Shown here: positions 13,833-35,548 of the stretch, piece after piece | Layout: the number at the start of each line of letters is the position of its first letter | Position numbering within the stretch: the first letter of the stretch is position 1 | IMG/VR virus record: IMGVR_UViG_646564533_000012 | Strand: one strand, 5' to 3' | DNA length: 35,548 nt | DNA from: a virus | Lineage: Duplodnaviria > Heunggongvirae > Uroviricota > Caudoviricetes | Notes under the pieces: generated by a model | Told to the model about the DNA's origin: nothing | The model's database searches: none | The model's input: the letters and a program-made list of their open reading frames with translations, nothing else | Made by a program: the position numbers and the translations under genes

Positions 13833-13986
13833 TGCTCCCCCTGAGTAATTACAGGAAGATTACCCGCGCGCGAAACTGTTCTCCTTAACCCCCTGTTCTG
13901 GCCGTTTTCTTACAACAAAAGCCCTTTGTATCAGCCTGTTACGCTTTGCCATCATGACTGAAGAACCAGTCAGAGGGGCAAAAACT
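13833..13986. promoter_or_regulatory. divergent late promoter region (P and O operons)
   Basis: Intergenic between divergent P and O; several TGT...ACA dyads, but no clean TGT-N12-ACA Ogr box identified. Confidence 0.35.
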
Positions 13987-19266: not shown

Positions 19267-19894
19267 GGCATTCACCCGCGTGGATGAAACCTTTGAGGCC
19301 ATCCGCGACAGCCTGAATCAGCAGGCCATCAATAACATCGCCAGAAAGCTGGCACAGGATTTACGCCGCGCCCAGCAGGCGCGTATCCGGTCACAGAAAG
19401 CGCCGGACGGGACCGCGTGGACACCACGCAGACGCCGCGTAACCCGGATACAGGAACGCATTCGCTTTATCTGGAATAACGAAGCACGCACGCTGAAAAA
19501 CTGGCATCACGATACGGGGAAATACGGGCGAACCATTACCGGGTGGGATGAGGATAAAAACAATATCCGCACGTTTTACCGGGATGACATCGACCGTTTT
19601 CTGGAAATACGCACCCGGCGCATCAACCAGGACAGCACAAAGCGCGTCCCCATGTTCGTAAAACTGCGCACCGCCCACTACCTGAAAGCCCGTGCAGATG
19701 CTTCCGGTGTGACGGTGGGTTACAGCGGCGTGGCCGCACGTATTGCACGCGTTCATCAGTTCGGTGAGCGCGATCAGGTTGCGCCGGGCATTTTCACCGA
19801 TTACCCGGTACGTGAGCTGTTGGGTATCAGCCAGGCAGATGAGCGCCTGATTTATAACACGGTGCTGGGCCGGATTGCGGAGGCTGTACGGTGA
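19250..19894 (+). CDS. S: tail completion / virion morphogenesis protein S
   Basis: Position matches P2 gpS; 214 aa, longer than the ~150 aa I recall for P2 S; start may be the ATG at 19259. Confidence 0.75.
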   Translation: MKAMDKAFTRVDETFEAIRDSLNQQAINNIARKLAQDLRRAQQARIRSQKAPDGTAWTPRRRRVTRIQERIRFIWNNEARTLKNWHHDTGKYGRTITGWDEDKNNIRTFYRDDIDRFLEIRTRRINQDSTKRVPMFVKLRTAHYLKARADASGVTVGYSGVAARIARVHQFGERDQVAPGIFTDYPVRELLGISQADERLIYNTVLGRIAEAVR

Positions 19895-20472
19895 GCGCAG
19901 AACTCATGCGACTGCTGAGCAACATCATCCGCACCGGGATCATCTCTGAAGTTGATGAGGAATCCTGGTGCGTGCGCGTTCGCAGCGGCGAACTGGAAAC
20001 AGGCTGGTTGCGCTGGAACACCACGCGCGCGGGAGCCTTCAATGTGTGGCTGCCGCCATCACCAGGCGAACAGGTGGCAATTGCCTGCATCGGCGGCAAC
20101 CCGGAAACCGCCATGATAATCGGCAGCCTGTGGAGTGATGCCATTCCGGCACCCGGCAAAAGCCTGAAAGAAATCGTGGTCAGCGCGCCGGACGGCGCGG
20201 TGTTCCGCTACGACGCAGACGCTGGCGCACTGAGCGCCAGCGGCATGAAAACAGCCACCCTGCAGGCATCCGTCAGCGTGACACTGGATACGCCCGTCGT
20301 GGAATGCACAGACCTTCTGAGAACAGCGACGCTTGACGTCACAAAAGGGGGAAAGATGAGCGGCAATATCACGCACAGCGGCGGCGATTTCACCTCAAAC
20401 GGCATCACAGTGCATACGCATAAGCACGGTGGCGTTAAAGGTGGCAGCGATTCGACAGGAGGCCCGCAGTGA
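19891..20472 (+). CDS. V: baseplate spike protein V
   Basis: 193 aa with GTG start overlapping the S stop; position and size as P2 gpV. Confidence 0.88.
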   Translation: MSAELMRLLSNIIRTGIISEVDEESWCVRVRSGELETGWLRWNTTRAGAFNVWLPPSPGEQVAIACIGGNPETAMIIGSLWSDAIPAPGKSLKEIVVSAPDGAVFRYDADAGALSASGMKTATLQASVSVTLDTPVVECTDLLRTATLDVTKGGKMSGNITHSGGDFTSNGITVHTHKHGGVKGGSDSTGGPQ

Positions 20473-22320: not shown

Positions 22321-23672
22321 CAGTGAAATACTACGCCATTCTGACTAATCAGGGCGCGGCACGACTGGCTAACGCGACGATGCTCGGCAGTAAGCTGAAT
22401 CTGACGCAAATGGCCGTTGGTGATGCAAATGGTGTGTTACCAACACCAGACCCTGCACAAACAAAACTGATTAACCAGAAACGCATTGCACCGCTGAATC
22501 TTCTGAGTGTTGACCCTAACAATCAGAGCCAGATTATTGCGGAGCAAATCATCCCTGAAAACGAGGGAGGATTCTGGATCCGTGAGATTGGTCTTTATGA
22601 TGATGAAGGTGTACTCATTGCGGTGGCAAACTGCCCGGAAACGTACAAACCGCAGTTGCAGGAAGGCAGTGGACGCACCCAGACTATCCGCATGATTCTG
22701 GTTGTCACGAACACCGAAGCCATCACGCTGAAAATCGACCCGTCTGTGGTTCTGGCAACCCGCAAATATGTGGATGACAAAATCTCAGAGCACGAACAGT
22801 CACGACGTCACCCGGACGCCTCGCTGACCGCAAAAGGTTTTACTCAGTTAAGCAGTGCAATTAACAGTGAATCAGAAACACTGGCCGCAACACCGAAAGC
22901 GGTTAAGGCTGCATATGACCTGGCTAACGCGAAATATACTGCCCAGAACGCCACCACAACACAAAAAGGGATTGTTCAGCTCAGTAGCGCCACGAACAGC
23001 ACGTCTGAAACGCTGGCAGCGACACCAAAAGCTGTTAAGGTGGTAATGGATGAAACGAACAAGAAAGCACCATTAAACAGCCCGGCACTGACCGGAACGC
23101 CAACAACACCAACAGCGCCACAGGGGACTAATAATACCCAGATCGCAAGCACAGCTTTCGTTATGGCCGCGATTGCCGCACTTGTAGATTCGTCACCTGA
23201 TGCACTGAACACGCTGAACGAACTGGCTGCGGCGCTGGGCAATGACCCGAATTTTGCGACCACCATGACTAACGCGCTTGCGGGTAAGCAACCGAAGGAT
23301 GCCACCCTGACGGCGCTGGCGGAGCTTGCTACATCAGCAGATAAACTCCCATATTTTACAGGGGCAGATCGTGCCGCGTTAACCGCGTTGACAAGTGTTG
23401 GACGTGCCATTCTTGGTAAAACCAGCACTCAGGGCGTTCTTGATTACCTTGGTTTGGGGGAAGGCTCTGCGCTGCCCGTTGGTGTGCCCGTTCCATGGCC
23501 CTCAGCCACGCTGCCAACGGGGTGGCTGAAATGTAACGGCGCAGCATTTTCTTCTGAAATGTACCCCAATCTGGCAAAGGCCTACCCCACCAATAAATTA
23601 CCGGATTTACGGGGAGAATTTATTCGTGGCTGGGATGATGGACGCGGTGTGGACATGGGAGAGCATTATTAA
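22317..23672 (+). CDS. H: tail fiber protein H (constant N-terminal part fused to a frameshift-truncated C-terminal cassette)
   Basis: Conserved N-terminus MTVKYYAILTNQGAARLANA; internal SETLAATPKAVK repeats; enters the shared cassette block GLGEGSALPVGVPVPWP at 23451, then terminates early (…GVDMGEHY). Confidence 0.88.
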   Translation: MTVKYYAILTNQGAARLANATMLGSKLNLTQMAVGDANGVLPTPDPAQTKLINQKRIAPLNLLSVDPNNQSQIIAEQIIPENEGGFWIREIGLYDDEGVLIAVANCPETYKPQLQEGSGRTQTIRMILVVTNTEAITLKIDPSVVLATRKYVDDKISEHEQSRRHPDASLTAKGFTQLSSAINSESETLAATPKAVKAAYDLANAKYTAQNATTTQKGIVQLSSATNSTSETLAATPKAVKVVMDETNKKAPLNSPALTGTPTTPTAPQGTNNTQIASTAFVMAAIAALVDSSPDALNTLNELAAALGNDPNFATTMTNALAGKQPKDATLTALAELATSADKLPYFTGADRAALTALTSVGRAILGKTSTQGVLDYLGLGEGSALPVGVPVPWPSATLPTGWLKCNGAAFSSEMYPNLAKAYPTNKLPDLRGEFIRGWDDGRGVDMGEHY

Positions 23673-23881
23673 GCAGCCAAGAGGCTACAAATTTTTCTCA
23701 GCGTGCCGGAAATATAGGCGATGGTGCGGGCCACGCAATTAATTTTCATGATGGCATAGTCGGAAATCAGCCAGGATTTTCACGATTTAATTTCACCAGT
23801 AACTCTGTAGGCGATGGTATAAATTTTGTTGCTGTCAGGCCGCGAAATATCGCATTTAATTACATCGTAAGGGCAGCATGA
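23673..23881 (+). pseudogene. out-of-frame remainder of the H-attached tail-fiber cassette (type E copy)
   Basis: Downstream sequence encodes the rest of the cassette (…IAFNYIVRAA) in another frame; matches the intact inverted copy at 25969..26400 except for one A missing in GACAATGGG. Confidence 0.6.
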
Positions 23882-23888
23882 AAACGTT

Positions 23889-24395
23889 GGTTTGGGGGAA
23901 GGCTCGGCGCTGCCCGTTGGTGTGCCCGTTCCATGGCCTTCAGCCACGCCGCCAACGGGGTGGCTGAAATGTAACGGTGCAGCATTTTCTTCTGAAATGT
24001 ACCCCAATCTGGCAAAGGCCTACCCCGCCAATAAATTACCGGATTTACGGGGAGAATTTATTCGCGGCTGGGATGATGGGCGCGGGGTGGATGCTGGCCG
24101 CGCTTTGCTTAATTGGCAGCCACACACAATTTTGGATCATGCACACTATATGGAATTATGGACCGGGGATGGACTTGCCGCGGGAAGTACACGGGAAGGA
24201 GTAAACCCTGGAATACTGGCTACATACGGGGACGGGGGAATAGTTAAAACAGACGAACCCGGTTTAAAGGTGCCTTCCTCACTACGAGCCATTAGCTCTC
24301 GTAATGTAAAACGGTTTGGTGAAATTAGTGGAAATGTAGGTACAGAAACTCGCCCTCGCAACGTTGCATTTAATTACATCGTAAGAGCCGCATGA
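23889..24395 (+). CDS. alternative tail-fiber C-terminal cassette B (promoterless in this orientation)
   Basis: Begins with the shared block GLGEGSALPVGVPVPWPSATPPTGWLKCNGAAF, unique middle, shared C-terminus ETRPRN.AFNYIVRAA. Confidence 0.7.
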   Translation, partial: GLGEGSALPVGVPVPWPSATPPTGWLKCNGAAFSSEMYPNLAKAYPANKLPDLRGEFIRGWDDGRGVDAGRALLNWQPHTILDHAHYMELWTGDGLAAGSTREGVNPGILATYGDGGIVKTDEPGLKVPSSLRAISSRNVKRFGEISGNVGTETRPRNVAFNYIVRAA

Positions 24396-24402
24396 AAACG
24401 TT

Positions 24403-24882
24403 GGTTTAGGAGAAGGTTCTGCACTGCCCGTTGGTGTGCCCGTTCCGTGGCCCTTAGCAACACCACCAACGGGCTGGCTGAAATGTAACGGTGCAGCATT
24501 TTCTTCTGAAATGTACCCCAAACTGGCAAAAGCCTACCCCACCAATAAATTACCAGACTTACGCGGTGAATTTATCCGTGGCTGGGATGATGGGCGAGGA
24601 ATTGATGCGGCACGCGCTTTATTGAGCATTCAAAACGGGATGTTGGAAAAACACCGCCATATTGTTGTAGCTAACGATGGATATGACACAAAAGATGAAT
24701 GGGAGTTGGCTACGATTTTCAAAAAAACATATACACAAGGCAGGGGGCTTGATGCCACAAATACAGGAGGGAGTTTGATTCCATCACCAACGCTTCATTC
24801 ACGAGGAAGTATTGGTAACACAGGTGGTAGTGAAACCCGCCCCCGCAATATTGCATTTAACTATATCGTGAGGGCGGCTTAG
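24403..24882 (+). CDS. alternative tail-fiber C-terminal cassette C
   Basis: Same shared N-terminal block and C-terminal tail with a distinct, AT-richer variable middle. Confidence 0.7.
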   Translation, partial: GLGEGSALPVGVPVPWPLATPPTGWLKCNGAAFSSEMYPKLAKAYPTNKLPDLRGEFIRGWDDGRGIDAARALLSIQNGMLEKHRHIVVANDGYDTKDEWELATIFKKTYTQGRGLDATNTGGSLIPSPTLHSRGSIGNTGGSETRPRNIAFNYIVRAA

Positions 24883-24888
24883 TTATAT

Positions 24889-25500
24889 TCAACTGGCTGC
24901 TGCCAGTGGTATTTCCGGCAAGTTGATATCTGGTGCCATGTTTATATCCATTGCGTTCAGCGCGTCTATATAATCCAGCACGGCATTAAGCCGGGTGGTT
25001 TCTGCCTGCGTCAACTTCCGCCCGGCCTGCAACTTCAACTGAATCAGACTTATGGAAGCCATTGCCGCATCAGCCAGTGACTGGCGCTTGGTTTCTGCCG
25101 CTTCTACTGCGGCACGATGTTGTGCCTCAGTATCTGTCACCCATTTTTCACCATCCCATTTATCGTATGGTGTGAACGGGGCGATAGTGGTTGTATTTTT
25201 CGGGTAGTCACCCAGCGCCGTGATTTCTTCGGTGTTTCCCGTGTCAGTGCTATAGACGGTTTCACCACGATGGTCTGGCGCATACTCCCATGAACTTAAA
25301 TTCTCCGAACGGCGGATAGCATAGCCCGCTTTATGTGCGCCCGGGGCATCTAAACAGGAATTTGCCGGAATACCGACACCCACAGCAAGATATTCAGTTG
25401 ATTCGGAAATATATTCCCGTGTCTCACCATCATAGTTATAAACGACGATGTTTCCTGCCTGTACGGCAATAAGGTCATCATTTAATATCGCGTTATTCAT
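24889..25500 (-). CDS. tail fiber assembly chaperone (Tfa / gpG-like)
   Basis: 203 aa, convergent with cassettes B and C and directly downstream of cassette D on the minus strand; typical Tfa-type sequence. Confidence 0.8.
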   Translation of the reverse strand: MNNAILNDDLIAVQAGNIVVYNYDGETREYISESTEYLAVGVGIPANSCLDAPGAHKAGYAIRRSENLSSWEYAPDHRGETVYSTDTGNTEEITALGDYPKNTTTIAPFTPYDKWDGEKWVTDTEAQHRAAVEAAETKRQSLADAAMASISLIQLKLQAGRKLTQAETTRLNAVLDYIDALNAMDINMAPDINLPEIPLAAAS

Positions 25501-25958
25501 TATGCGGTTCTCACAATATAATTGAAGGCAATATTGCGTGGGCGGGCTTCATTCCCCCCTGAGGATTCCGTTCTGTATTGACTGGTAAATCTACCGTTAA
25601 TTGCACCTTGCCGGACGGCGTTATCTGTCGACAACAGACTATCCCCTCCTTTGTCATTTGGCACCAGTACCGTGTTATCCCACGCGTCCCATGACCGAAT
25701 ATTATGATAATGACTTCCTGTTAACCACCCCTGCATGCTTAAGATGCCCCTTCCGGCATCCACCCCGCGCCCATCATCCCAGCCACGGATAAATTCACCG
25801 CGTAAGTCTGGTAATTTATTGGTGGGGTAAGCCATTGCCAGTCTGGGATACATTTCAGAAGAAAATGCTGCGCCGTTACATTTCAGCCACCCCGTTGGCG
25901 GCGTGGCTGAGGGCCATGGAACAGGTACACCAACAGGCAGTGCAGAGCCTTCCCCCAA
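25500..25958 (-). CDS. alternative tail-fiber C-terminal cassette D
   Basis: Shared N-terminal block on the minus strand, unique middle, shared C-terminus; stop overlaps the tfa start. Confidence 0.7.
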   Translation of the reverse strand: MGEGSALPVGVPVPWPSATPPTGWLKCNGAAFSSEMYPRLAMAYPTNKLPDLRGEFIRGWDDGRGVDAGRGILSMQGWLTGSHYHNIRSWDAWDNTVLVPNDKGGDSLLSTDNAVRQGAINGRFTSQYRTESSGGNEARPRNIAFNYIVRTA

Positions 25959-25968
25959 ACCAACGTTT

Positions 25969-26454
25969 TCATGCTGCCCTTACGATGTAATTAAATGCGA
26001 TATTTCGCGGCCTGACAGCAACAAAATTTATACCATCGCCTACAGAGTTACTGGTGAAATTAAATCGTGAAAATCCTGGCTGATTTCCGACTATGCCATC
26101 ATGAAAATTAATTGCGTGGCCCGCACCATCGCCTATATTTCCGGCACGCTGAGAAAAATTTGTAGCCTCTTGGCTGCTTAATAATGCTCTCCCATTGTCC
26201 ACACCACGTCCATCATCCCAGCCACGAATAAATTCGCCCCGTAAATCCGGTAATTTATTGGTGGGGTAGGCCTTTGCCAGATTGGGGTACATTTCAGAAG
26301 AAAATGCTGCGCCGTTACATTTCAGCCACCCCGTTGGCAGCGTGGCTGAGGGCCATGGAACGGGCACACCAACGGGCAGCGCAGAGCCTTCCCCCAAACC
26401 AACGTTTTCGTCTTTATCCCTACCTATACCAACTATGTATTTTTCACGAAACAA
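25969..26454 (-). CDS. alternative tail-fiber C-terminal cassette E (intact copy of the cassette fused to H)
   Basis: Shared block starts at 26400; the track ORF extends upstream to 26454 (MFREKYIVGIGRDKDENV); sequence equals the H-attached cassette apart from the 1-nt indel. Confidence 0.7.
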   Translation of the reverse strand: MFREKYIVGIGRDKDENVGLGEGSALPVGVPVPWPSATLPTGWLKCNGAAFSSEMYPNLAKAYPTNKLPDLRGEFIRGWDDGRGVDNGRALLSSQEATNFSQRAGNIGDGAGHAINFHDGIVGNQPGFSRFNFTSNSVGDGINFVAVRPRNIAFNYIVRAA

Positions 26455-26468
26455 AGAGGATGTTTTTT

Positions 26469-27068
26469 ATGCAAATTGGCTATATTCGTGTGTCAACAAA
26501 TGACCAGAACACGGATTTACAACGCAATGCACTGAACTGCGCAGGATGTGAACTGATTTTTGAAGATAAAATCAGCGGAACGAAATCAGCCAGACCGGGA
26601 TTGAAAAAACTGCTCAGAACGCTATCAGAAGGAGATACGCTGGTTGTCTGGAAGCTGGACAGACTGGGCAGAAGTATGAAACACCTGATCACGCTTATTG
26701 AGGAATTGCGGGAAAAAGGTGTTAATTTCCGTAGTCTGACGGACAGCATTGACACATCAACACCCATGGGGCGTTTCTTTTTTCACGTCATGGGGGCTTT
26801 AGCCGAAATGGAACGTGAATTAATTGTAGAGCGTACACTGGCCGGGCTGGCAGCAGCACGCGCACAAGGACGCATTGGCGGACGTCGCCCGAAGTTGACA
26901 AAAGAACAACACGAGCAAATAGCGAGGCTGATTAAAAACGGTCATGACAGGAAACAACTGGCGATCATTTACGACATCGGCATATCGACGATTTATCGTT
27001 ATCACCCTGTAGGCGATATACAGGCTGAAGAAACAACCAGGCAGACTCAGGAAAATGAAAACCGCTAA
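26469..27068 (+). CDS. serine recombinase DNA invertase (Hin/Gin/Cin/Pin family)
   Basis: MQIGYIRVSTNDQNTDLQRNAL...VVWKLDRLGRSMKHLI...MGRFFFHVMGALAEMERELI is near-identical in pattern to Hin/Gin; start behind AGAGGA. Confidence 0.92.
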   Translation: MQIGYIRVSTNDQNTDLQRNALNCAGCELIFEDKISGTKSARPGLKKLLRTLSEGDTLVVWKLDRLGRSMKHLITLIEELREKGVNFRSLTDSIDTSTPMGRFFFHVMGALAEMERELIVERTLAGLAAARAQGRIGGRRPKLTKEQHEQIARLIKNGHDRKQLAIIYDIGISTIYRYHPVGDIQAEETTRQTQENENR

Positions 27069-27090
27069 TCTGACCATTAGCGGTTTTGCG
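27062..27090 (+). terminator. terminator hairpin at the invertase / U convergent junction
   Basis: CCGCTAAT-N6-ATTAGCGG followed by TTTTG; a second GTTTTG-N7-CAAAAC dyad follows; coordinates approx. Confidence 0.4.
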
Positions 27091-27094
27091 TTAA

Positions 27095-27589
27095 TCAAAA
27101 CAGCCCTTTAACGGAGCTGGCCGCGCTGTTAAGGGATGATGTGACCTTGTCTTTGAAGCCGGACAGCATATCACTGAACGATGAGGATTGCAGGCGCTCC
27201 CGCAAATCCTCATCACAGCGTTCAAGAGTCAGTGAAAATTCTATCTTTTTCGCCTTACCGTAGCGATCAAACTCGGAGCGGGTCGTATTCGTTCCGGTCA
27301 GGACATACATGCCGTAAATCTGCCCGACACCATCAATCAGAGGCCAGGGGCGTCCTGTATATGCCTGCGTGGTCAGCAACGAAAGCGACACTTCGCCACC
27401 TGTAATTTCAGGATAAAGCACGCCGGAAAGCACGATGCGATCATCACCTGCACCGATATACTGCCAGCTTGCTGAACGGTTAACACGTTCATTTTTCACA
27501 TGCCGCCAGCTTTTGTTTTGCTGTAACTGCTGATGCGGCAGTGTGCGCAGCTCAAAAACAAACATGCCGTAGATCATCATCATGACCAT
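27095..27589 (-). CDS. U: tail protein U
   Basis: 164 aa; conserved LSGVLYPEITGG and WPLIDG.G.IYGMYV as in P2 gpU. Confidence 0.85.
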   Translation of the reverse strand: MVMMMIYGMFVFELRTLPHQQLQQNKSWRHVKNERVNRSASWQYIGAGDDRIVLSGVLYPEITGGEVSLSLLTTQAYTGRPWPLIDGVGQIYGMYVLTGTNTTRSEFDRYGKAKKIEFSLTLERCDEDLRERLQSSSFSDMLSGFKDKVTSSLNSAASSVKGLF

Positions 27590-27595
27590 GACTCC

Positions 27596-30412
27596 TCAAT
27601 CTTTATCGTAAAAACTGCCACGTCCGGCACGGGCGCGCCGTTCCATCTCTGCCCTGACCATTTCACCGACCAGTTTCGCCAGTTCGCGGGGATTCTGCGT
27701 AACAACGTTATGCAGATGAACATGAATTTCACCGCCAAATCCGGAGGCAACAGGCTCCCGGTTACGGGAAGTTACAGGAACTGATGCCACTGGAGATCGT
27801 ATGGCCTCCGCCACCGGGCGGGAGCTGGCCGCAACAACAGGGACCAGCGCCGGAGGCAGCGGAGCCGGGACCACGGGTGTGATATTAATTGCGGGGGCAG
27901 GCTTACTGACCTGCGCAATCTTCCGCTCCTGCCACTCCCCACGAACAGCAAGTGCGCGGGGCAGGTTCTTAAAGACAATATCGCCGGGGCCAATGCGTTT
28001 TTTCGTCTCATCAACCAGCTTACCTGTGTTATCAGCAATTTTGCTGAGTCTGCGTAGCGTCCCGGTATTGCTGTCTGTGAGCGGTTTGTTGTCTTTGGGT
28101 TTATCACCTCCGGTGCCATTGCCATTTTCCACAGGCTTCGGCGGATTGATTTTCGCAAGGTCCCCCTGAAGCAAGGCAACCTTGTCCTGAAGAATGGCCG
28201 CACGCTGTGCGTCTTCGATTTTCTTGCGCGCCCTTTCCGCTTCATCCGGAAGGACGCCAAGTTTTTCAAGTATCCACGCCAGCGTATCCAGTAGCATTTT
28301 TGCAGGTGTCAGAACAAGCTGTAACGCACCGCCAAGAACGTTACCGAATATCTCGCCAGCACTGGTACATTTATCCAGCGTTTCCTTGCTGGACTCCATC
28401 GGTGACAGCAGCGATTTAAACCAGTTAAACACCTGGCTGATCCCGCTTCCGATTGCGTCAAAAACAGGACCAAACCGTTCAAAGGTTTCGCGCAACGGGG
28501 TCAGCCTTTCCATAATCCCGCTGAACACCCCGGCAAAAAATGCCCTGATGGGATCCCAGTATTTCCAGATAAGAACGGCAGCTCCGGCAAGCGCAGCCAC
28601 GATAAGACCAACCGGACTGAACAGCGCCCCGATAGCGCCTCCCAGTAAAGAAACGGAACCCGTCACCATTCCCCACAGCGCAGGCAACACCCTGACGACA
28701 TTCATTGACCGGGTAAGAATGTCAAAACCAAGACGCAGGGTGGCCAGCTTCCCGTAAAGCACCCCAATAACCAGCGACAACGAGCCAATCGTTGCAGTCA
28801 TTGCCAGCAACGCACCGCCTGCTATCAGTAGCTGGCGCGTCAGTACCGGATGGGCCTGCGCCAGCGAGGTGATTTTTTCAAGCACCCGCGTGAGCCACTG
28901 CGTGACAGAACGCAGCGGACCGTCAACCAGATCACTGATGCGAATACGAAGACCTTCCCATGCGCTGTCGAGATTTTTCAGGTCCCCATCAAGATTATCG
29001 GCCATTACTTTTGCGACGCGATCGGCCTCTCCCCTTGCCCCCTGCAATTCTCTGGTCAGTTTTTGCAGCTCTCCTGAACCAGCCGCCGCAACAAGCGTCT
29101 GCAAACCAACGAACGCCTCTTCTCCGGCGATGTCCTTGAAGAAGGAAACCTGGTCCACCTGTCCGTATTTTTGTGTCGCCTTATAGAGATCAAGCAGCAC
29201 ATCCTCCATCGGGCGCATTTTGCCTCTGGCGTCAGCAACTGACACCCCCAGCTCTTTCAGTGCATCAGCCGCAGCTTTTGGCGGTGATGCAAGGCGGGAC
29301 AGACTTGCGCGCATGGCCGTACCAGCATCGCTTCCGCGAAGACCATTATTGGCAAGCATCCCGGCCATGGCCGCCGCTTCTTCAAGACTGATACCAAGTT
29401 TTGCGGCAACCGGACCGGTATACTTCATGGTTTCGCCCAGCGCGCGTAAATCAGTATTGGTCCGGGTGAATGCCGCTGTCAGCGTATCGCCAACACGGTC
29501 CATTTGATCGGCTGTCAGGTTGAACTGTGTGAGGATATTGGAGCCTATATCAGCCGTCTCGCCGAGTTCGACGCCACCTGCCAGCGCCATATTAAGAACA
29601 CCGGGCAATGCGGCCTGAATGGCCTGCGGAGTAAAACCAGCCATTGCCAGAAAGCTCTGCCCACTGGCGGCATCACTCGCAGTAAACTGTGTTTCAGAGC
29701 CAAGTTTTAACGCCTGCTCACGCAGCGCCTTAAACTGCGGGCTGTTTTTGTCGATTCGCGTCAGTGCCTGAACGCGGGACATCTCTTTGCCGAACCCGAT
29801 CGCAGGCTGCAAAAAACGCCCGGCAGCATAGCCGCCCGCCGCTGCCGCACCAATTGCCAGCGCACCACCTGTTTTCAGTTTCCCCGCGGTTTCCTGCGCG
29901 CGCGAATACCGCTCACGCGCCCGCGTTACACGCGCAAGCGCCTGCCGTTCGCGTTCAAGCTGGTTGTTGTACTGTTCGGTGCGTCTGATGGCCTGCTGGA
30001 TGGTGTTATCGCTGCCTGTCAGGGAAATGCCGTGTCGTTTCAGTTCTCCGCCAAGTTCCCGCATTTTCTGAATTTCCCGTGTGCGCGATTCATTCAGGCG
30101 TTCAAGCCGGGTGCTTAACTGCTGCATCAGCTTTTGTTGTTTTTCGCTGAGCACTGTACCCGTGCGTTGTAACTGATTAAGGGCGTTAAGCTGGCGTCGT
30201 GCTTTCACGATGCCCGCATCCGCTTTACTGACAGCGTCACGGGCGCGCTCAAATGAACGCGCCTGACGCTCGAGATTTTTGATCGCCCCCTGCGTTCGCT
30301 GGATGGAGTCACCAAACTGCCCCATCAGGCGGCGGGCGTTTTCGGCAGGCCGGGTCAGCCTGTCAACGGCGCTGAAAGCGACCCGGATATCAAGAGTCTT
30401 CATTGTCTGCAT
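27596..30412 (-). CDS. T: tail tape measure protein T
   Basis: About 940 aa, helical N-terminal half and Gly/Ala-rich hydrophobic core typical of tape measure proteins; start trimmed to MQTMKTL after the E' stop. Confidence 0.9.
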   Translation of the reverse strand: MQTMKTLDIRVAFSAVDRLTRPAENARRLMGQFGDSIQRTQGAIKNLERQARSFERARDAVSKADAGIVKARRQLNALNQLQRTGTVLSEKQQKLMQQLSTRLERLNESRTREIQKMRELGGELKRHGISLTGSDNTIQQAIRRTEQYNNQLERERQALARVTRARERYSRAQETAGKLKTGGALAIGAAAAGGYAAGRFLQPAIGFGKEMSRVQALTRIDKNSPQFKALREQALKLGSETQFTASDAASGQSFLAMAGFTPQAIQAALPGVLNMALAGGVELGETADIGSNILTQFNLTADQMDRVGDTLTAAFTRTNTDLRALGETMKYTGPVAAKLGISLEEAAAMAGMLANNGLRGSDAGTAMRASLSRLASPPKAAADALKELGVSVADARGKMRPMEDVLLDLYKATQKYGQVDQVSFFKDIAGEEAFVGLQTLVAAAGSGELQKLTRELQGARGEADRVAKVMADNLDGDLKNLDSAWEGLRIRISDLVDGPLRSVTQWLTRVLEKITSLAQAHPVLTRQLLIAGGALLAMTATIGSLSLVIGVLYGKLATLRLGFDILTRSMNVVRVLPALWGMVTGSVSLLGGAIGALFSPVGLIVAALAGAAVLIWKYWDPIRAFFAGVFSGIMERLTPLRETFERFGPVFDAIGSGISQVFNWFKSLLSPMESSKETLDKCTSAGEIFGNVLGGALQLVLTPAKMLLDTLAWILEKLGVLPDEAERARKKIEDAQRAAILQDKVALLQGDLAKINPPKPVENGNGTGGDKPKDNKPLTDSNTGTLRRLSKIADNTGKLVDETKKRIGPGDIVFKNLPRALAVRGEWQERKIAQVSKPAPAINITPVVPAPLPPALVPVVAASSRPVAEAIRSPVASVPVTSRNREPVASGFGGEIHVHLHNVVTQNPRELAKLVGEMVRAEMERRARAGRGSFYDKD

Positions 30413-30928
30413 TCCCGCTGCGAAGTGCCGCCCGCTCACGCCAGCTAACCACTTCGCCGGGCGTCATCATGAAGATTTCGGCGGGCGACCAGTTAAAAAT
30501 GGCGGCGATATCTGCCACCAGATCTTCGATGTGCTCAAAGCACACCAGGGTGATTACGCTGCCGTCTCCTGCACGCTCTTCGCGCCAGAGTCTGGCTCGC
30601 TCATAAAATTTACAGCCACAGCGCACAACTGAATAAAATCGCGTGACGACATTTTTTTAATCATCACTTCATCCAGTCGTGGCGAGGTCACGCGAGGCAA
30701 CAGCGTGAACATGGTATCCGCTTTCAGATTCAGCACATCAGACAGCGACAGACCACGCAGGGATCCAGCCTGTTCAATAGCCCCGGTGATCTCCACATAC
30801 GTGATTTTTTCGCCACCACGCTCAATTGGTCGGGTCAGTTTTACGCCACGTTCGACAGCCATATCCTCACCTGCCGTCACATCATCCGCCACGGTGTTAT
30901 TCCGGGTTTCAGTATCGATGTCTTTCAT
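30390..30928 (-). CDS. tail assembly chaperone E+E' (-1 programmed frameshift product)
   Basis: Seven-A run at approx 30653..30659 on the coding strand (ATT AAA AAA ATG); the -1 frame continues as the 30390..30626 track ORF; analogous to P2 E/E+E' and lambda G/GT. Confidence 0.65.
30554..30928 (-). CDS. E: tail assembly chaperone E
   Basis: 124-aa ORF between FII and T; contains the A7 slippery run. Confidence 0.8.
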   Translation of the reverse strand: MKDIDTETRNNTVADDVTAGEDMAVERGVKLTRPIERGGEKITYVEITGAIEQAGSLRGLSLSDVLNLKADTMFTLLPRVTSPRLDEVMIKKMSSRDFIQLCAVAVNFMSEPDSGAKSVQETAA

Positions 30929-30983
30929 CAGTTGTCTCCTTTTCAGTCAGAGGCGACGCACTGCGCCGCCTGCATATTACTTA

Positions 30984-31496
30984 TCAGCCAAGCCCAAGCG
31001 CGGAACGGATACGGTCAGGCACAATGTCCTTGCCGTCCTTCCGGTAAATGAAGTTCAGCAGGTCAATCTCCCACAGCGGGCGATCGTTAACGCTCAGCTT
31101 GTAGTAGGTGTTTTTAATGGCGTAAGAGTGTGATGTGGCTTCGCCCTGTTTGGCTTCCCCCATATCAATTTCCGTCACACGTCCGCGCATTTCGACTTCA
31201 TACAGGTCGCTTTCTGCATCGGTGTAGTATTCACCCGCAAAACGCAGCAGCGTGCCGTCAATCGTGCCGCCATACTTAAGGAACAGCTCACGAACTGCGC
31301 CCCCCATGACAAAGCTCGCATCAAGCGCGGAGTCGTCCAGACCGAGATCAATACTTACCGCACCCATCATGCCACCACCCCGGTAGCTGTCGGTTTTGCG
31401 CGTCAGCTTAGGCAGAGTGACGGACGTCACCTTACCCACTTCGTTTTCACCATCCACAAACAGCGTAAAAAAGCGAAGATGTTTTGGCACAGCCAT
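30984..31496 (-). CDS. FII: tail tube protein FII
   Basis: 170 aa, size and position as P2 FII. Confidence 0.9.
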   Translation of the reverse strand: MAVPKHLRFFTLFVDGENEVGKVTSVTLPKLTRKTDSYRGGGMMGAVSIDLGLDDSALDASFVMGGAVRELFLKYGGTIDGTLLRFAGEYYTDAESDLYEVEMRGRVTEIDMGEAKQGEATSHSYAIKNTYYKLSVNDRPLWEIDLLNFIYRKDGKDIVPDRIRSALGLG

Positions 31497-32680
31497 CAGG
31501 CACCTCCCAGCACCGCAAATGCGGGTTCAAAGTATTCATCAGTAAACGTCTGGTAAAGCTCCATATCTTCCAGCGGGGGAACAGGCGTATATTTGTAGCG
31601 AATACGCACACGCCCCTGACGTAAATCCGTGGTGCTGTTATCCACCACGTCATACCAGCACTCCGCGCCAATCAGTTTCCCGGCAGTAACCAGTGAATCC
31701 AGTTTTGCCCTGATGGCACTGATAACATCCTTCACGTTCGCAGGCGTCAGTGGACTGTCGATGGTTTCAAACTGCGCTTCCGCAATTGAATCAGCCAACA
31801 CCTGTGCGGTTCGGGTATACACCTCAAAGATGTAGGCGTTCGTTTCCGGTGTGCGGTTGCCCCAGAAGCGGAACCCGTTGCGACGAATAATGGTCGTGAT
31901 TTCTTTGTTGTTGAGGCTGTTGGCATCACTGTCTTCGGCCTGCAACGACCAGAACACATGCCTGGACATCCCCAGCACATTTTTAACCGGAACGTTGGAC
32001 AGCGATTTGTGCCAGCCCTGTTCATGGTCAATGTACGCACGGAGGCCGCACGCATAGGCAGGCGCGGGGAACGTTTCGTTTTTGCCACTTTTGGGGTTGT
32101 AGGCGATGAAGTCCGGCCATAAGAGCATCACCTCACGTTCGTTGAATTTCTGGCGGTAGGTAATCGCCTCAGCCATCGTGTTACAGCCGTGACATGAGGC
32201 ATACACAAACGCGCGCAGTTTACCTGCAATCACGCACAGGGATTTTGTTACAGCCTCCGTGTCCAGCTCCGGCGCGGCCAGAATACGCGGACGGTATCCG
32301 ATGCTTTCATCCTGCTCTGCAACAAGCAGCGCATACATCCCCGTATAGCTGCCGTCATCCTCAGAACCACCGATAACCAGTTGATCCTGCGTCTTTCCGT
32401 CTTCTTCTTTGTGTTCAGCCACGCGAACGACGATCACCTTTGTGCTCACCTGGTCTGCAATGGCCTTAAGCGCACGATAAAGCGTCCCCGTTGTCCCGCA
32501 TTTTCCCAGCACGTCATTGACGCGGATCAGCAGTGTGGGCTTGTTCAGCGGGAACAGCTTCGCGTCCGCATCATCCGCCGTTGCCACGATACCGATAACG
32601 CTGGAATCAACATCGTTAATCGCTGTTACCAGGTCGGTATTTTCCGTAACACGGGCACCATGAAAACGAGTTTCACTCAT
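31496..32680 (-). CDS. FI: tail sheath protein FI
   Basis: 394 aa, size and position as P2 FI. Confidence 0.92.
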   Translation of the reverse strand: MSETRFHGARVTENTDLVTAINDVDSSVIGIVATADDADAKLFPLNKPTLLIRVNDVLGKCGTTGTLYRALKAIADQVSTKVIVVRVAEHKEEDGKTQDQLVIGGSEDDGSYTGMYALLVAEQDESIGYRPRILAAPELDTEAVTKSLCVIAGKLRAFVYASCHGCNTMAEAITYRQKFNEREVMLLWPDFIAYNPKSGKNETFPAPAYACGLRAYIDHEQGWHKSLSNVPVKNVLGMSRHVFWSLQAEDSDANSLNNKEITTIIRRNGFRFWGNRTPETNAYIFEVYTRTAQVLADSIAEAQFETIDSPLTPANVKDVISAIRAKLDSLVTAGKLIGAECWYDVVDNSTTDLRQGRVRIRYKYTPVPPLEDMELYQTFTDEYFEPAFAVLGGA

Positions 32681-32837
32681 AGCTTCAGCCCCTTGTATCC
32701 GTTAAATGATTCGGCAACAATCATCACCCACCACGCGCGTAATCTCACCCCTGCGCCGTTCTCCCGACCCGGCGACAACAAAAAGCAGTAACCCCCTCCG
32801 CACGCACATGCGACCATGCCGCACAGGGAGGGAACAG
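32681..32837. promoter_or_regulatory. divergent promoter region between FI (leftward) and D (rightward)
   Basis: 157-bp gap between two divergent starts; promoters inferred from arrangement only. Confidence 0.3.
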
Positions 32838-33947
32838 ATGACCGACACCACCATGCAATTGCTCAGTCAGGGCACAGACCCCGTGAAAATGCCGGATTTT
32901 GATATTCTTGCGGAGGGTAAAACGCTGTCAGGCGTGGCAGAGCGCCTGATGAGCCTGTCACTGACCGACAACCGGGGATTTGAGGCGGACCAGCTCACCA
33001 TCACGCTGGATGATGCGGATGGTCAGTTGCAGCTACCGCCACGGGGCGCGCGCCTGACGGTTCTCATTGGCTGGAAAGGAGAACCGCTGACAGAAAAAGG
33101 CACTTACATTGTTGATGAAATCGCTCACGAAGGACCGCCGGACAGGCTGACTGTTTCAGCCAGAAGCGCAGATTTTCGGGATGAATTTAACGTTAAACGT
33201 GAGGTGTCCTGGCATGATGTGACCCTTGAGCGTGTGGTATCCGCCATCGCTCATCGGTATGGTCTGAAACCACAAATCAGCGAAATGCTGATGGATATCG
33301 AAATCGACCACGCCGACCAGACCGAAGAAAGCGACATGTCCTTCCTTACGCGCATGGCGGAAATGCTGGGCGCAATCACCACGGTAAAAAGCGGTAATCT
33401 GTTATTCATCATGCCAGGCGGTGGCGTGAACGCACAGGGCCAGCCGTTGCCCTCGTTCGCCATCACGCGCAGCAGTGGCGATCGCCATCAGTTCCGCATT
33501 GCTGACCGCGAAGCGTATACGGGGGTACGCGCTTACTGGCTTGATCTTAATTACGGGAAAAAGAAAAAAGTCAGCGTGAAACGCCGCAAACCGCCAAAAC
33601 CCAAAAAGGAGAAAAGCAGCAGCCGTGAAGGTGATTATATGGAAGGCGCAGAAGGCAATGTGTTTGTGTTACGCAAGACTTATCAGAACGAGCAGGCAGC
33701 AAGACGCGCAGCGGCGGCAAAGTGGCAGCAGCTACAACGCGGAGCCGCAGCGTTCTCCATCACACTGGCACGTGGACGCGCAGAACTCTACCCCGAAATG
33801 CATGGCACGGTAACAGGATTTAAAAGCGAAATTGATAATCAGGACTGGATTATTGCAAAAGCCGAGCACACCATTGATAACAGTGGCTTTACCACGCAGC
33901 TTGAGCTTGAAGCCAAAATCCCGGAATGGATAGCAGAAACAGAGTAA
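32838..33947 (+). CDS. D: tail protein D (late control gene D family)
   Basis: Track ORF 32706..33947 trimmed to the Met behind GGGAGGGAACAG; about 369 aa, size and neighbourhood match P2 gpD. Confidence 0.82.
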   Translation: MTDTTMQLLSQGTDPVKMPDFDILAEGKTLSGVAERLMSLSLTDNRGFEADQLTITLDDADGQLQLPPRGARLTVLIGWKGEPLTEKGTYIVDEIAHEGPPDRLTVSARSADFRDEFNVKREVSWHDVTLERVVSAIAHRYGLKPQISEMLMDIEIDHADQTEESDMSFLTRMAEMLGAITTVKSGNLLFIMPGGGVNAQGQPLPSFAITRSSGDRHQFRIADREAYTGVRAYWLDLNYGKKKKVSVKRRKPPKPKKEKSSSREGDYMEGAEGNVFVLRKTYQNEQAARRAAAAKWQQLQRGAAAFSITLARGRAELYPEMHGTVTGFKSEIDNQDWIIAKAEHTIDNSGFTTQLELEAKIPEWIAETE

Positions 33948-34141
33948 ACAACTTAGATGCATTAGCCCTGACATTTGCTAACGCGCTTACAGCAAGAATC
34001 ATAACCAATCTGACAGCCTACCCGGTGTCAAAATCAGAAGAGCCTTACATTAGAATATGTTAATTTGTAGCAAACAAATTTACACACAAATGATTACTGC
34101 TGAAATAGCCCCCATAAATACCATGTCAAAGGATCCATGTT

Positions 34142-34807
34142 ATGAATATGCAAATTTTTATCGCACCAGCAGCCACAGTTGCTGCAGTCTGCCTTGCTGC
34201 ATATTTTGCTTTACGAAATGAACGTAAAAAGAAAGCACTTGAGATTAGAACAACTCAACTAGATCGAATATCAGAGCTAGTAAACCGAGCATCTACCAAT
34301 TTGATGCAATATACAGGTACTCTTGCCTCTATACTGGAAGCGCACGCCAAAGATAATTATCTACCGAACAAAAAATTTGACATTAATGTAATTAGCAAAT
34401 GGAAAGATTGCCTCGATGAGAGTGAGGTCTGGGCGATTGATAGACAGCAACTAAGAACATGTCAGCACAGTCTGGAGTTTCATCGTGAAAAAGAATGGGC
34501 TGAATGGAAAAAAATAATTCCACCATTACTTGATAAAATTGACCAATTTTTTCTCATATCTAAGCCAGGGCAACCTGTTACGTTTATAAATGGCCAAAAC
34601 AAAACAGCTGATGAACTACTTGTTTTCTCAAGATATTTGAGAAAACAAACAGCAGAAATTGAATCAGTACGTCAGCTGTTACTTTCTCAAATGAGAGAGG
34701 AATTCATCGAGTTAACTAGCTTTGAACCTGTCACAATGTTTAGCTTATTTAAATCAATAAAGAAAAATGTCATGCAATTTTTCTGTATCAGTGCTCTTAA
34801 AAATTGA
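34142..34807 (+). CDS. hypothetical membrane-anchored protein, AT-rich cargo gene
   Basis: 221 aa with N-terminal TM helix IFIAPAATVAAVCLAAYFAL; markedly AT-rich against flanking D and ogr; own AT-rich upstream region and downstream terminator. Confidence 0.6.
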   Translation: MNMQIFIAPAATVAAVCLAAYFALRNERKKKALEIRTTQLDRISELVNRASTNLMQYTGTLASILEAHAKDNYLPNKKFDINVISKWKDCLDESEVWAIDRQQLRTCQHSLEFHREKEWAEWKKIIPPLLDKIDQFFLISKPGQPVTFINGQNKTADELLVFSRYLRKQTAEIESVRQLLLSQMREEFIELTSFEPVTMFSLFKSIKKNVMQFFCISALKN

Positions 34808-34821
34808 CGCTCTGTTGCAAG

Positions 34822-34852
34822 CAACCCCAGTGTTAAACTGGGGTTATTCTTG
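34822..34852 (+). terminator. putative terminator after the cargo gene
   Basis: AACCCCAGT-GTTAA-ACTGGGGTT hairpin followed by ATTCTTG; coordinates approx. Confidence 0.4.
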
Positions 34853-34956
34853 CTAAGAGACCTTTCTACGGCATCAGTAAACAAAACGAACTATCAGTTG
34901 GAGTCTGAGCAAGTTCAGCCTAAACTAGCGACAGCACTACGTTAAGGGAGGTCGCT

Positions 34957-35217
34957 ATGTTCCGTTGTCCGCTTTGTGGCGCATCTGCCCGTATCCGCAC
35001 CAGTCGTCCGGAAAATGATTCAAACACCGTGCGGCAAAAGTATTACCAGTGTAACAACCTGGAATGCGGCGTATGCTTCTCAACACTGGAAGCTTTCCAT
35101 AAATTCACATCGAAACACGCCTCCGGCATCCACTCTTCAGAAGGTATCCCGTGGCATGAGCTGCCAGCTTCACACAGGGGAAACAATCAGATGAGCTTGC
35201 CTTTACCTCAGAATTAA
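34957..35217 (+). CDS. ogr: late transcription activator Ogr/Delta family zinc-finger protein
   Basis: MFRCPLCGASARIRTSR...YYQCNNLECGVCFSTLE matches the P2 Ogr C-X2-C...C-X4-C pattern; AAGGGAGG upstream. Confidence 0.9.
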   Translation: MFRCPLCGASARIRTSRPENDSNTVRQKYYQCNNLECGVCFSTLEAFHKFTSKHASGIHSSEGIPWHELPASHRGNNQMSLPLPQN

Positions 35218-35277
35218 CAGGCAGAATTGCCGGAGTAACAAAAAAGCGATAGATTACGCGCGGGTGCCTTTCGGCTG

Positions 35278-35490
35278 ATGGTCGGAGGGAATACCCGAAG
35301 GCCAGATGTGGAAAGGCCCCGGAAAACATCTCTGTTTAACCGAGGCCCTAACCGCATTACCTTGACAAGTGAAAGGTTAGCGCCTCTCCGGAAAAGGAGC
35401 AAGTGCTATGTCGCAAAAATCGCTTACGGCCATCACGTTCTGCGTGACGGCAATCCTCATCATCTGGATGTTGCACGGTTCGCTGTGTGA
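35278..35490 (+). CDS. mok-like overlapping reading frame of the hok locus
   Basis: 70-aa ORF starting upstream of and overlapping the hok-like frame, as in hok/mok/sok loci. Confidence 0.35.
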   Translation: MVGGNTRRPDVERPRKTSLFNRGPNRITLTSERLAPLRKRSKCYVAKIAYGHHVLRDGNPHHLDVARFAV

Positions 35491-35548
35491 AATACGGATG
35501 AGCTTCTGGGGAGCGGAGTTTGCGGCGTTCTTACAGTGTAAGCAGTAA
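35408..35548 (+). CDS. hok: Hok/Gef-family type I toxin (46 aa)
   Basis: MSQKSLTAITFCVTAILIIWMLHGSLCEIRMSFWGAEFAAFLQCKQ: one TM helix then the SLCEIR...AAF signature of Hok/Gef toxins; below the track cut-off; stop is the last codon of the window. Confidence 0.6.
   Translation: MSQKSLTAITFCVTAILIIWMLHGSLCEIRMSFWGAEFAAFLQCKQ

What the first reader, a model, noticed from the sequence alone, without database searches (positions are those of the whole stretch)
27069..32837. Tail operon FI-FII-E-T-U inverted relative to canonical P2 order
In P2 the order is H, G, FI, FII, E, T, U, D, all rightward, with D the last gene of the FI operon. Here the FI to U block runs leftward (U abuts the invertase, FI abuts D) while D stays rightward and alone. 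A simple 5.8-kb inversion explains the layout and means D must now be expressed from a new promoter in the 157-bp FI/D divergent gap.
Basis: partly seen in the sequence, partly recalled or inferred. Interest (0 to 1): 0.5.

Follow-up and report, generated by a model that had tools for sequence, protein, structure and literature searches.

The report
P88-type prophage's normal tail gene order
The tail sheath-to-U gene block does run backwards compared with phage P2, but this is the fixed, ancient gene order of a whole clade of P2-like phages found in about a quarter of complete E. coli genomes, so it is ordinary.

Summary
U, T, E/E', FII and FI lie on the minus strand (27095-32680). D (32838-33947) lies on the plus strand across a 157-bp gap. 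The invertase (26469-27068) converges on U.

The same layout is found in:
- phage P88 and Citrobacter phage PhiSM, both viable phages;
- all 80 closest IMG/VR relatives;
- three further Peduoviridae genera and Serratia phage KSP20;
- 46 prophages in GTDB species-representative genomes, from Salmonella to Xenorhabdus and Yersinia;
- 1356 of 5426 complete E. coli genomes.

FI and D trees each split cleanly into inverted and canonical groups, which fits one old inversion. The inversion is not tied to the invertase. Seventy of 100 assessable relatives with this order lack an adjacent invertase, no crossover sites or inverted repeats mark the junctions, and no relative shows the other orientation.

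The gap holds a conserved T(G/C)T-N12-ACA site, matching the Ogr activator consensus, about 84 nt from the FI start as in P2. Its extended form occurs only once more in the window, in the divergent P/O gap. I infer one activator site serving divergent FI and D late promoters, as annotated for P2's pP/pO. This is untested. Interest is low.

The parts
26469..27068 (+). Serine DNA invertase (Din/Hin-type), converging on U. It belongs to the tail-fibre switching module, not to the inverted block.
   Evidence: Pfam Resolvase plus HTH_7. ATG at 26469 read from the sequence and confirmed by translation.
27058..27087 (.). Hairpin with a 12-bp stem (AAAACCGCTAAT / ATTAGCGGTTTT) and T-runs on both strands. 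Likely a bidirectional terminator for the invertase and the FI-U operon.
   Evidence: Terminator scan and the sequence itself.
27095..27589 (-). gpU-like tail protein, last gene of the leftward operon.
   Evidence: PF06995, 1.5e-38.
27596..30403 (-). gpT-like tape measure protein. ATG at 30403; the longest ORF reaches 30439.
   Evidence: PF10145; sequence; the P88 homologue is 2808 nt.
30390..30928 (-). gpE (30554-30928) and its -1 frameshift extension E' (to 30390). Candidate slippery heptamer A AAT TTT at 30611-30605.
   Evidence: Weak PF10109 match. Frame analysis of the sequence. P88 annotates two matching small tail genes. The frameshift itself is inferred.
30984..31496 (-). gpFII tail tube.
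   Evidence: PF04985, 6.3e-47.
31496..32680 (-). gpFI tail sheath, first gene of the leftward operon.
   Evidence: PF04984, PF22671 and PF17482.
32681..32837 (.). 157-bp divergent FI/D intergenic region. Inferred bidirectional late promoter region (P_F leftward, P_D rightward).
   Evidence: Sequence. The gap is 122-198 nt in 128 related loci. Conserved blocks in the anchored alignment. No sigma-70 consensus promoter in the gap.
32758..32783 (.). GTTCT-N12-ACAACAAAA. The core TCT-N12-ACA (32760-32777) is one mismatch from the published Ogr/delta consensus TGT-N12-ACA. Centre 32768.5, which is 88.5 nt from the FI ATG and 69.5 nt from the D ATG.
   Evidence: Consensus as quoted in PMC3931495.
32838..33947 (+). 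gpD baseplate hub (late control D / VgrG-related).
   Evidence: PF05954, NCBIfam VgrG_rel weak match, P88 gp51 coordinates.
34957..35217 (+). Ogr/Delta-type zinc-finger late activator, downstream of D as in P2.
   Evidence: PF04606, 5.1e-14.
13895..13920 (.). The only other copy of the extended motif (GTTCT-N12-ACAACAAAA) in the window. It lies in the divergent terminase P / scaffold O gap. Centre 13905.5, which is 73.5 nt from the P ATG and 81.5 nt from the likely O ATG (13987).

Best explanation
The window is a P88-type (genus Xuanwuvirus) P2-like prophage, and the leftward FI-FII-E/E'-T-U block is the standard, fixed gene order of its lineage. One ancient inversion of the FI-U segment, carrying its late promoter, in an ancestor of a large enterobacterial clade of Peduoviridae separated D from the F operon. 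The inversion placed the FI 5' end and its Ogr-type activator site head-to-head with D. The likely mechanism is inferred, not shown. The single dyad-like site T(G/C)T-N12-ACA in the middle of the gap would recruit the phage's Ogr homologue and activate two divergent late promoters. P_F would run leftward (FI to U, ending at the hairpin at 27058-27087). P_D would run rightward (D, possibly reading on towards ogr). The P2 record annotates one activator site in the same way for the divergent pP and pO promoters. The neighbouring invertase plays no part; it only switches the tail-fibre C-termini upstream.
For: The layout is identical in many independent sources:
- P88 and PhiSM annotations; both are described as active temperate phages (PMC6456863).
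- 80 of 80 closest IMG/VR loci.
- The FI/D junction is spanned in one piece in Novemvirus phiT5282H, Reginaelenavirus 3LV2017, Reipivirus ST16-OXA48phi5.4, Serratia KSP20 and dozens of Klebsiella phages.
- 46 of 80 GTDB species-representative loci have it. They are every locus with FI at least 54% identical to the window's by the locus search's own figures; all those at 51% or below are canonical.
- A junction-spanning match occurs in 1356 of 5426 complete E. coli genomes.

Other supporting results:
- The window is colinear with P88: 77.7% aligned at 94.8% identity.
- NJ trees of FI and of D each contain a single branch separating all inverted from all canonical loci.
- Canonical loci include Beta- and Gammaproteobacteria and P2 and Fels-2, which points to canonical as the ancestral state.
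- In canonical loci U and D abut or overlap.

Promoter evidence:
- 88 of 89 distinct gap sequences carry T[GC]T-N12-ACA centred 76-90 nt from the FI start.
- This geometry matches the P2 pF site (centre about 83 nt from the FI ATG) and Fels-2 (84.5 nt).
- The extended motif occurs exactly twice per genome, in the P/O and FI/D divergent gaps, in the window, phiT5282H and 3LV2017.
- The P2 record annotates one activator site for both pO and pP.
- An ogr homologue is present.
Against: - No transcript data were available, so the start sites, Ogr dependence and sharing of one site are all inferred.
- The core motif alone is not enriched in the window: 11 matches against 15.9 +/- 3.9 in shuffles. 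The case rests on the extended motif, its position and its conservation.
- The window's site is TCT, not TGT.
- With a -55 spacing the D leader would be only about 14 nt.
- The trees are NJ without bootstrap, unrooted, and sample only the 80 best GTDB loci.
- I found no paper in the held library that describes the arrangement explicitly.
Confidence: 0.85

Rival explanations
1. A recent 5.8-kb inversion specific to this genome.
For: The layout differs from P2 and Fels-2.
Against: All close and many distant relatives share it, including 1356 complete E. coli genomes. FI is only 45-48% identical to P2 and Fels-2 FI, so P2 is a distant comparator.
Confidence: 0.01
2. An assembly artefact that flipped a contig segment.
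For: None, beyond the unusual order relative to P2.
Against: The same junctions occur in more than 120 independently assembled loci and in isolated phage genomes. Both junctions carry sensible signals: a bidirectional terminator and a conserved promoter region.
Confidence: 0.005
3. A programmed, reversible inversion of the FI-U block catalysed by the adjacent invertase.
For: A Din-type invertase abuts U.
Against: Din-type crossover sites (core AAACCNNGGTTT) occur only at 23439, 23875, 24389, 25950 and 26389, all inside the tail-fibre region. The longest inverted repeat between the two junction neighbourhoods is 9 nt, reached by 24% of shuffles. Seventy of 100 assessable loci with this order have no invertase next to U. 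No locus in the clade shows the other orientation.
Confidence: 0.01
4. The lineage-trait conclusion holds, but D is transcribed from its own independent promoter. That could be a separate unrecognised activator site or an Ogr-independent promoter, rather than sharing the central site with FI.
For: The D-side flank carries its own strongly conserved GC-rich block and a -10-like element (for example CGCGCGCGCATGAAACTATCAGCG in many relatives). These could bind something else. In the window the site centre sits closer to D (69.5 nt) than is typical for P2 late promoters.
Against: Only one T(G/C)T-N12-ACA site is conserved in the gap. No sigma-70 consensus promoter is found there. The same single-site, two-gene geometry recurs in the P/O gap, and the P2 record assigns one site to both promoters there.
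Confidence: 0.25
5. The layout arose by modular recombination or several steps (for example capture of a D-ogr or tail module from another phage), not by one simple inversion.
For: P2-like phages are mosaic, and other P2-like phages have differently rearranged late operons (Smp131; PMC3931495).
Against: FI and D trees give the same clean split with similar internal branch lengths (0.18 and 0.16). Gene order inside FI-U and D-ogr is unchanged. One inversion suffices.
Confidence: 0.1

Closest known systems
Escherichia phage P88 and relatives (Peduoviridae, genus Xuanwuvirus; also Citrobacter phage PhiSM, Xuanwuvirus P884B11, phages 500465-2 and 520873)
   Same: Colinear genome: 77.7% of the window aligns to P88 at 94.8% identity. 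The layout H - invertible fibre segment - invertase -> <- U T E FII FI <- -> D is identical, with a 157-bp FI/D gap.
   Different: The tail-fibre variable region and parts of the early region differ. The window has a roughly 970-bp low-GC insertion with a 221-aa ORF between D and ogr that P88 lacks.
Phage P2 F operon (FI FII E E' T U D, promoter pF) and Fels-2
   Same: Same gene set and same internal order FI to U. A candidate E/E' -1 frameshift is present. ogr lies downstream of D. The activator site sits about 83-89 nt upstream of the FI ATG.
   Different: The FI-U block is inverted, so D is not co-transcribed with FI. U converges on the fibre/invertase module instead of abutting D. FI is only 45-48% identical.
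Phage P2 divergent late promoters pP/pO with a single annotated activator-binding site
   Same: A divergent gene pair about 150-175 bp apart with one central dyad-type site. In P2 the centre is 55-56 nt from each TSS, 79 nt from the P ATG and 95 nt from the O ATG. In the window the distances are 88.5 and 69.5 nt (FI/D) and 73.5 and 81.5 nt (P/O).
   Different: The FI/D version serves different genes and has no experimental support. P2 itself has no promoter directly upstream of D.
Din-family invertase tail-fibre switches (Mu Gin, P1 Cin, e14 Pin, Fels-2 invertase)
   Same: An invertase gene sits at the end of a fibre region that holds gix/cix-like crossover sites in both orientations.
   Different: This system acts on 23.4-26.4 kb only. 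It does not bound the FI-U block.
Other P2-like phages with rearranged late operons (Stenotrophomonas phage Smp131)
   Same: Late tail operons are shuffled relative to P2, while TGT-N12-ACA sites are retained, including one site assigned to both PP' and PO' (PMC3931495).
   Different: A different rearrangement in a different lineage.

Membership tests
P2-like (Peduoviridae) contractile tail module | Sheath FI, tube FII, chaperone E/E', tape measure T, U and hub D homologues present | tested here: met
   Pfam matches above cut-off for FI, FII, T, U and D. The E match is weak, at 20.6 bits against a cut-off of 25.
P2-like (Peduoviridae) contractile tail module | Programmed -1 frameshift producing E+E' | tested here: inconclusive
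   An overlapping -1 ORF runs to 30390, and the X XXY YYZ heptamer A AAT TTT lies at 30611-30605 in the right frame. No expression data.
P2-like (Peduoviridae) contractile tail module | Canonical P2 order with D as last gene of the F operon | tested here: not met
   FI-U is on the opposite strand to D. This is a feature of P2 itself, not a requirement for the family. Four ICTV genera of Peduoviridae share the inverted order.
Genus Xuanwuvirus (P88-like) | Nucleotide similarity across the genome of about 70% or more to a member. This ICTV genus guideline is quoted from my own knowledge. | tested here: met
   Local blastn against P88: aligned fraction 0.777 times identity 94.8% gives 73.7%. This is approximate, because the window may include non-phage flanks.
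Genus Xuanwuvirus (P88-like) | Colinear gene order, including inverted FI-U and divergent D | tested here: met
Ogr/Delta-dependent P2-type late promoter | TGT-N12-ACA dyad upstream of the transcription start (about -55) | tested here: inconclusive
   TCT-N12-ACA lies at 32760-32777. T[GC]T-N12-ACA is conserved in 88 of 89 distinct gaps at a fixed distance from FI. The TSS is not known.
Ogr/Delta-dependent P2-type late promoter | Cognate Ogr/Delta zinc-finger activator encoded by the phage | tested here: met
   PF04606, 5.1e-14, at 34957-35217.
Ogr/Delta-dependent P2-type late promoter | Activator-dependent transcription in vivo, or activator binding in vitro | not testable with these tools
   Requires TSS mapping, reporter assays or footprinting.
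Invertase-bounded invertible DNA segment | Crossover sites in inverted orientation at both ends of the segment | tested here: not met
   No Din-type core and no above-chance inverted repeat at 27069-27094 or 32681-32837.
Invertase-bounded invertible DNA segment | Both orientations observed among copies or populations | tested here: not met
   All 128 assessable loci from the clade (127 fetched relatives plus the window) have the same orientation.

The most novel reading that the evidence does not exclude
The inversion was tolerated, and then fixed, because the Ogr-type activator site is dyad-like and works in both directions. In this clade two activator sites (the P/O gap and the FI/D gap) would then drive four late transcription units, and the hub gene D would be a separately tunable late unit. 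This would be a second, evolutionarily derived example of a shared bidirectional late promoter in P2-like phages.
Probability: 0.55. Interest if true: 0.3.

Novelty: already known. Interest (0 to 1): 0.12.

Why it matters
It matters little for discovery. The gene order is the ordinary state of a very common prophage lineage and is visible in annotated public genomes, including isolated phages. The practical points are these:
- P2 is a poor synteny reference for P88-type prophages, so a difference from P2 should not be flagged as a rearrangement or misassembly.
- Annotation pipelines mislabel genes around this junction. In the PhiSM record, FI is called 'late control gene D' and D is called 'ogr'. 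In the P88 RefSeq record, ogr is not annotated.
- The conserved single activator-type site between FI and D gives a cheap, testable model for how late-operon architecture can be rewired by an inversion without a new regulator.

Tried and rejected
- **Inverted repeats linking the two junctions.** None appeared among 62 pairs in 22.0-34.2 kb. A dedicated junction-to-junction test gave a 9-nt best match, no better than shuffles.
- **Invertase crossover sites at the junctions.** None; all five lie in the tail-fibre region.
- **Sigma-70 promoter scan of the gap.** Nothing was found in the gap, and the region as a whole was below the shuffle expectation.
- **Core motif enrichment in the whole window.** Not enriched, so I relied on the extended motif, its position and its conservation.
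- **Strict T[GC]T-N12-ACA upstream of FI in canonical relatives.** Present in only 6 of 36 at 78-88 nt; P2's own sites are imperfect. The strict pattern is therefore not a universal marker.
- **Literature.** I found no explicit description of the inverted order in the P88 paper, the C. rodentium prophage paper, tailocin papers or keyword searches. The xnp1 paper, PMC3133312, is not held.
- **The 221-aa ORF between D and ogr.** No Pfam, PHROG, PADLOC or NCBIfam match.
- **An error of mine.** In some searches the invertase query was taken one base out of frame (26470 instead of 26469). This affected only the 'inv' labels in those tables. It was corrected, and the FI/D orientation results are unaffected.
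- **First tree attempt.** It timed out and was redone.
Full report
**1.
The ORF map and Pfam place five genes on the minus strand:
- gpU at 27095-27589;
- the tape measure T at 27596-30439 as the longest ORF, with the likely ATG at 30403;
- gpE at 30554-30928;
- the tube FII at 30984-31496;
- the sheath FI at 31496-32680.

The hub gene D is on the plus strand. Its longest ORF begins at 32706. The start preceded by GGGAGGG, which is also the one annotated in phage P88, is 32838. The FI/D gap is therefore 32681-32837, 157 bp.

The serine invertase is 26469-27068 on the plus strand and converges on U. A 12-bp-stem hairpin with T-runs on both strands (27058-27087) fills the junction.

The P2 record confirms the reference order H, G, FI, FII, E/E', T, U, D, ogr, all rightward, with D in the F operon.

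One detail needs correcting. D is followed on its strand by a 221-aa ORF and an ogr homologue (34957-35217; PF04606), so it is not 'alone'.

**2. The orientation is the norm in the lineage.**
- The right 11.5 kb of the window matches P88, Xuanwuvirus P884B11, phages 500465-2 and 520873, and Citrobacter phage PhiSM at 93-95% identity, colinearly.
- The P88 and PhiSM annotations show the same order: invertase (+), then U, T, E', E, FII, FI (all -), then D (+).
- Both are described as active temperate phages (PMC6456863; P88 was obtained by induction, PMC5285337), so the layout is functional.
- The whole window aligns to P88 over 77.7% of its length at 94.8% identity. That places it in or next to genus Xuanwuvirus.
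- All 80 closest IMG/VR loci (FI at least 98% identical) have D divergent from FI.
- A 901-bp probe spanning the junction finds a single-piece match covering at least 80% of the probe in 1356 of 5426 complete E. coli genomes.

**3. The arrangement is deep.**
A junction-spanning probe in the more sensitive (distant) search mode also hit, in one piece, Enterobacter phage phiT5282H (Novemvirus), Klebsiella phage 3LV2017 (Reginaelenavirus), Klebsiella phage ST16-OXA48phi5.4 (Reipivirus), Serratia phage KSP20 and many Klebsiella phages. Their annotations confirm the order.

In GTDB species representatives, 46 of the 80 best FI loci have the inverted order. They come from records titled Salmonella, Citrobacter, Enterobacter, Kosakonia, Symbiopectobacterium, Pantoea, Mixta, Izhakiella, Erwinia, Trabulsiella, Klebsiella, Raoultella, Brenneria, Serratia, Pectobacterium, Yokenella, Photorhabdus, Morganella, Xenorhabdus, Chania and Yersinia, plus one assembly labelled Vagococcus that is probably mislabelled or contaminated (see the passing notes). 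The other 34 are canonical, as are P2 and Fels-2.

The split follows FI similarity exactly. By the locus search's own figures, every locus with FI at least 54% identical to the window's is inverted, and every locus at 51% or below is canonical.

Neighbour-joining trees of FI (89 sequences) and of D (88 sequences) each contain one branch that separates all inverted from all canonical loci. The canonical loci include Betaproteobacteria and Acinetobacter and are much more diverse in D (maximum distance 1.60 against 0.63). The canonical order is therefore most simply ancestral, and the inverted order arose once. The trees have no bootstrap support and are unrooted, so this is well supported but not proven.

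In canonical loci U and D abut or overlap. This fits a breakpoint between U and D.

**4. The invertase is not involved.**
- Din-type crossover sites (core AAACCNNGGTTT) occur only at 23439, 23875 and 24389 in one orientation, and at 25950 and 26389 in the other. All lie inside the tail-fibre region, which also holds all the long inverted repeats.
- The two block junctions share no inverted repeat beyond chance: 9 nt, reached by 24% of shuffles.
- Among inverted-order loci with enough sequence beyond U to judge, 30 have an invertase next to U and 70 do not. Among canonical loci, 10 of 36 have one just upstream of FI. The invertase is therefore an optional part of the fibre module in both layouts.
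- No locus in the clade shows the alternative orientation.

**5. How D is probably expressed (inferred).**
The FI/D gap is 122-198 nt in 128 loci, which give 89 distinct sequences. In 88 of the 89 there is a T(G/C)T-N12-ACA element centred 76-90 nt from the FI start. This matches the published consensus for P2 late promoters (TGT-N12-ACA; PMC3931495). The distance matches the annotated pF activator site of P2, whose centre is about 83 nt from the FI ATG, and Fels-2 at 84.5 nt.

In the window the element is TCT-N12-ACA at 32760-32777, within GTTCT-N12-ACAACAAAA. The core pattern alone is not enriched in the window: 11 matches against 15.9 +/- 3.9 in shuffles. The extended motif, however, occurs exactly twice in 35.5 kb. 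Both copies are in the same orientation, and both lie in the only two divergent late-gene gaps: P/O at 13895 and FI/D at 32758. By my own arithmetic, ten fixed bases would be expected about 0.07 times on two strands.

The same pattern of two sites per genome holds in phiT5282H and 3LV2017.

| Gap | Centre to left ATG (nt) | Centre to right ATG (nt) | Source |
|---|---|---|---|
| Window FI/D | 88.5 (FI) | 69.5 (D) | |
| Window P/O | 73.5 (P) | 81.5 (likely O start, 13987) | |
| P2 pP/pO, one annotated activator site | 79 (P) | 95 (O) | |

In P2 that single site lies 55-56 nt from each transcription start.

The anchored alignment also shows conserved blocks on both flanks at about 20-50 nt from the centre. 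Examples are GTGATAATCC and CTCACGC on the FI side and CGCGCGCGCATGAAAC(T/C)ATCAGCG on the D side in many relatives. No sigma-70 consensus promoter is present in the gap.

My reading is that the inversion carried pF with FI, and the central activator site now serves both FI and D. If the -55 spacing applies, the starts would lie near 32713 on the minus strand and 32824 on the plus strand. None of this has been tested. An independent D promoter remains a live alternative.

**6. Verdict.**
It is the standard gene order of P88-type phages and of a broad enterobacterial clade of P2-like phages and prophages.

I found no paper in the held library that spells out the arrangement, but it is plain in public annotated records. 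The only mildly new element is the hypothesis of a shared, bidirectional late promoter.

Noticed in passing
window 23439-26414: A multi-site invertible tail-fibre region. Five gix/cix-like crossover sites lie at 23439, 23875 and 24389 in one orientation and at 25950 and 26389 in the other. Long inverted repeats (up to 443 nt, 95-99% complementary) link alternative fibre C-termini and tail-fibre assembly genes on both strands. Several fibre variants should be reachable by inversion.
   Followed up: partly
window 33958-34925 (ORF 34142-34807): A roughly 970-bp low-GC (about 0.39) insertion between D and ogr that P88 lacks. It encodes a 221-aa protein with a hydrophobic N-terminus and no Pfam, PHROG, PADLOC or NCBIfam match. 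It may be cargo (a 'moron') at a variable spot.
   Followed up: partly
L171 (P88, NC_026014) about 34476-34736; L002 (PhiSM, OR565851): Annotation problems in relatives. The ogr homologue is not annotated in the P88 RefSeq record. In the PhiSM record the sheath gene is labelled 'late control gene D protein' and D is labelled 'ogr'.
   Followed up: partly
window 19250-20472 and whole window: S and V overlap (19894/19891), and the extended activator motif occurs only in the P/O and FI/D gaps. This lineage may therefore lack a separate pV promoter, and O through the fibre genes may form one long late unit.
   Followed up: partly
window 30605-30611, minus strand: Candidate -1 slippery heptamer A AAT TTT for the E/E' tail chaperone frameshift. 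The -1 frame stays open to 30390 and overlaps the T start at 30403.
   Followed up: partly
window 35241-35548: The right end of the window matches a hok/gef (MokW-like) host-killing locus at 83% identity. The same locus is found in many Stx-converting phages and is annotated in P88.
   Followed up: no
window 8537-9496: A ParM-like partition protein (phrog_691; annotated as ParM in P88) inside an integrating P2-like prophage. P88 is mentioned in a phage-plasmid survey (PMC7969092).
   Followed up: no
L090 (NZ_JBQPOM010000071.1, labelled Vagococcus sp. WN89Y): A 226-kb contig of a supposed Vagococcus (Firmicutes) assembly carries this enterobacterial prophage with FI 97% identical to the window's. 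The assembly is probably contaminated or mislabelled.
   Followed up: no
phage records NC_049344 (520873) and NC_049341 (503458): IS100/IS21-family insertions are annotated within the tail tape-measure/sheath region of these P88-like prophages, so these copies are probably defective.
   Followed up: no
L087 (Klebsiella phage ST16-OXA48phi5.4) 4543-6446: In this relative, the position between the fibre genes and U holds a DUF262 protein plus a hypothetical gene. In the window the invertase occupies that position. The U-side junction therefore looks like a variable cargo site across the clade.
   Followed up: no
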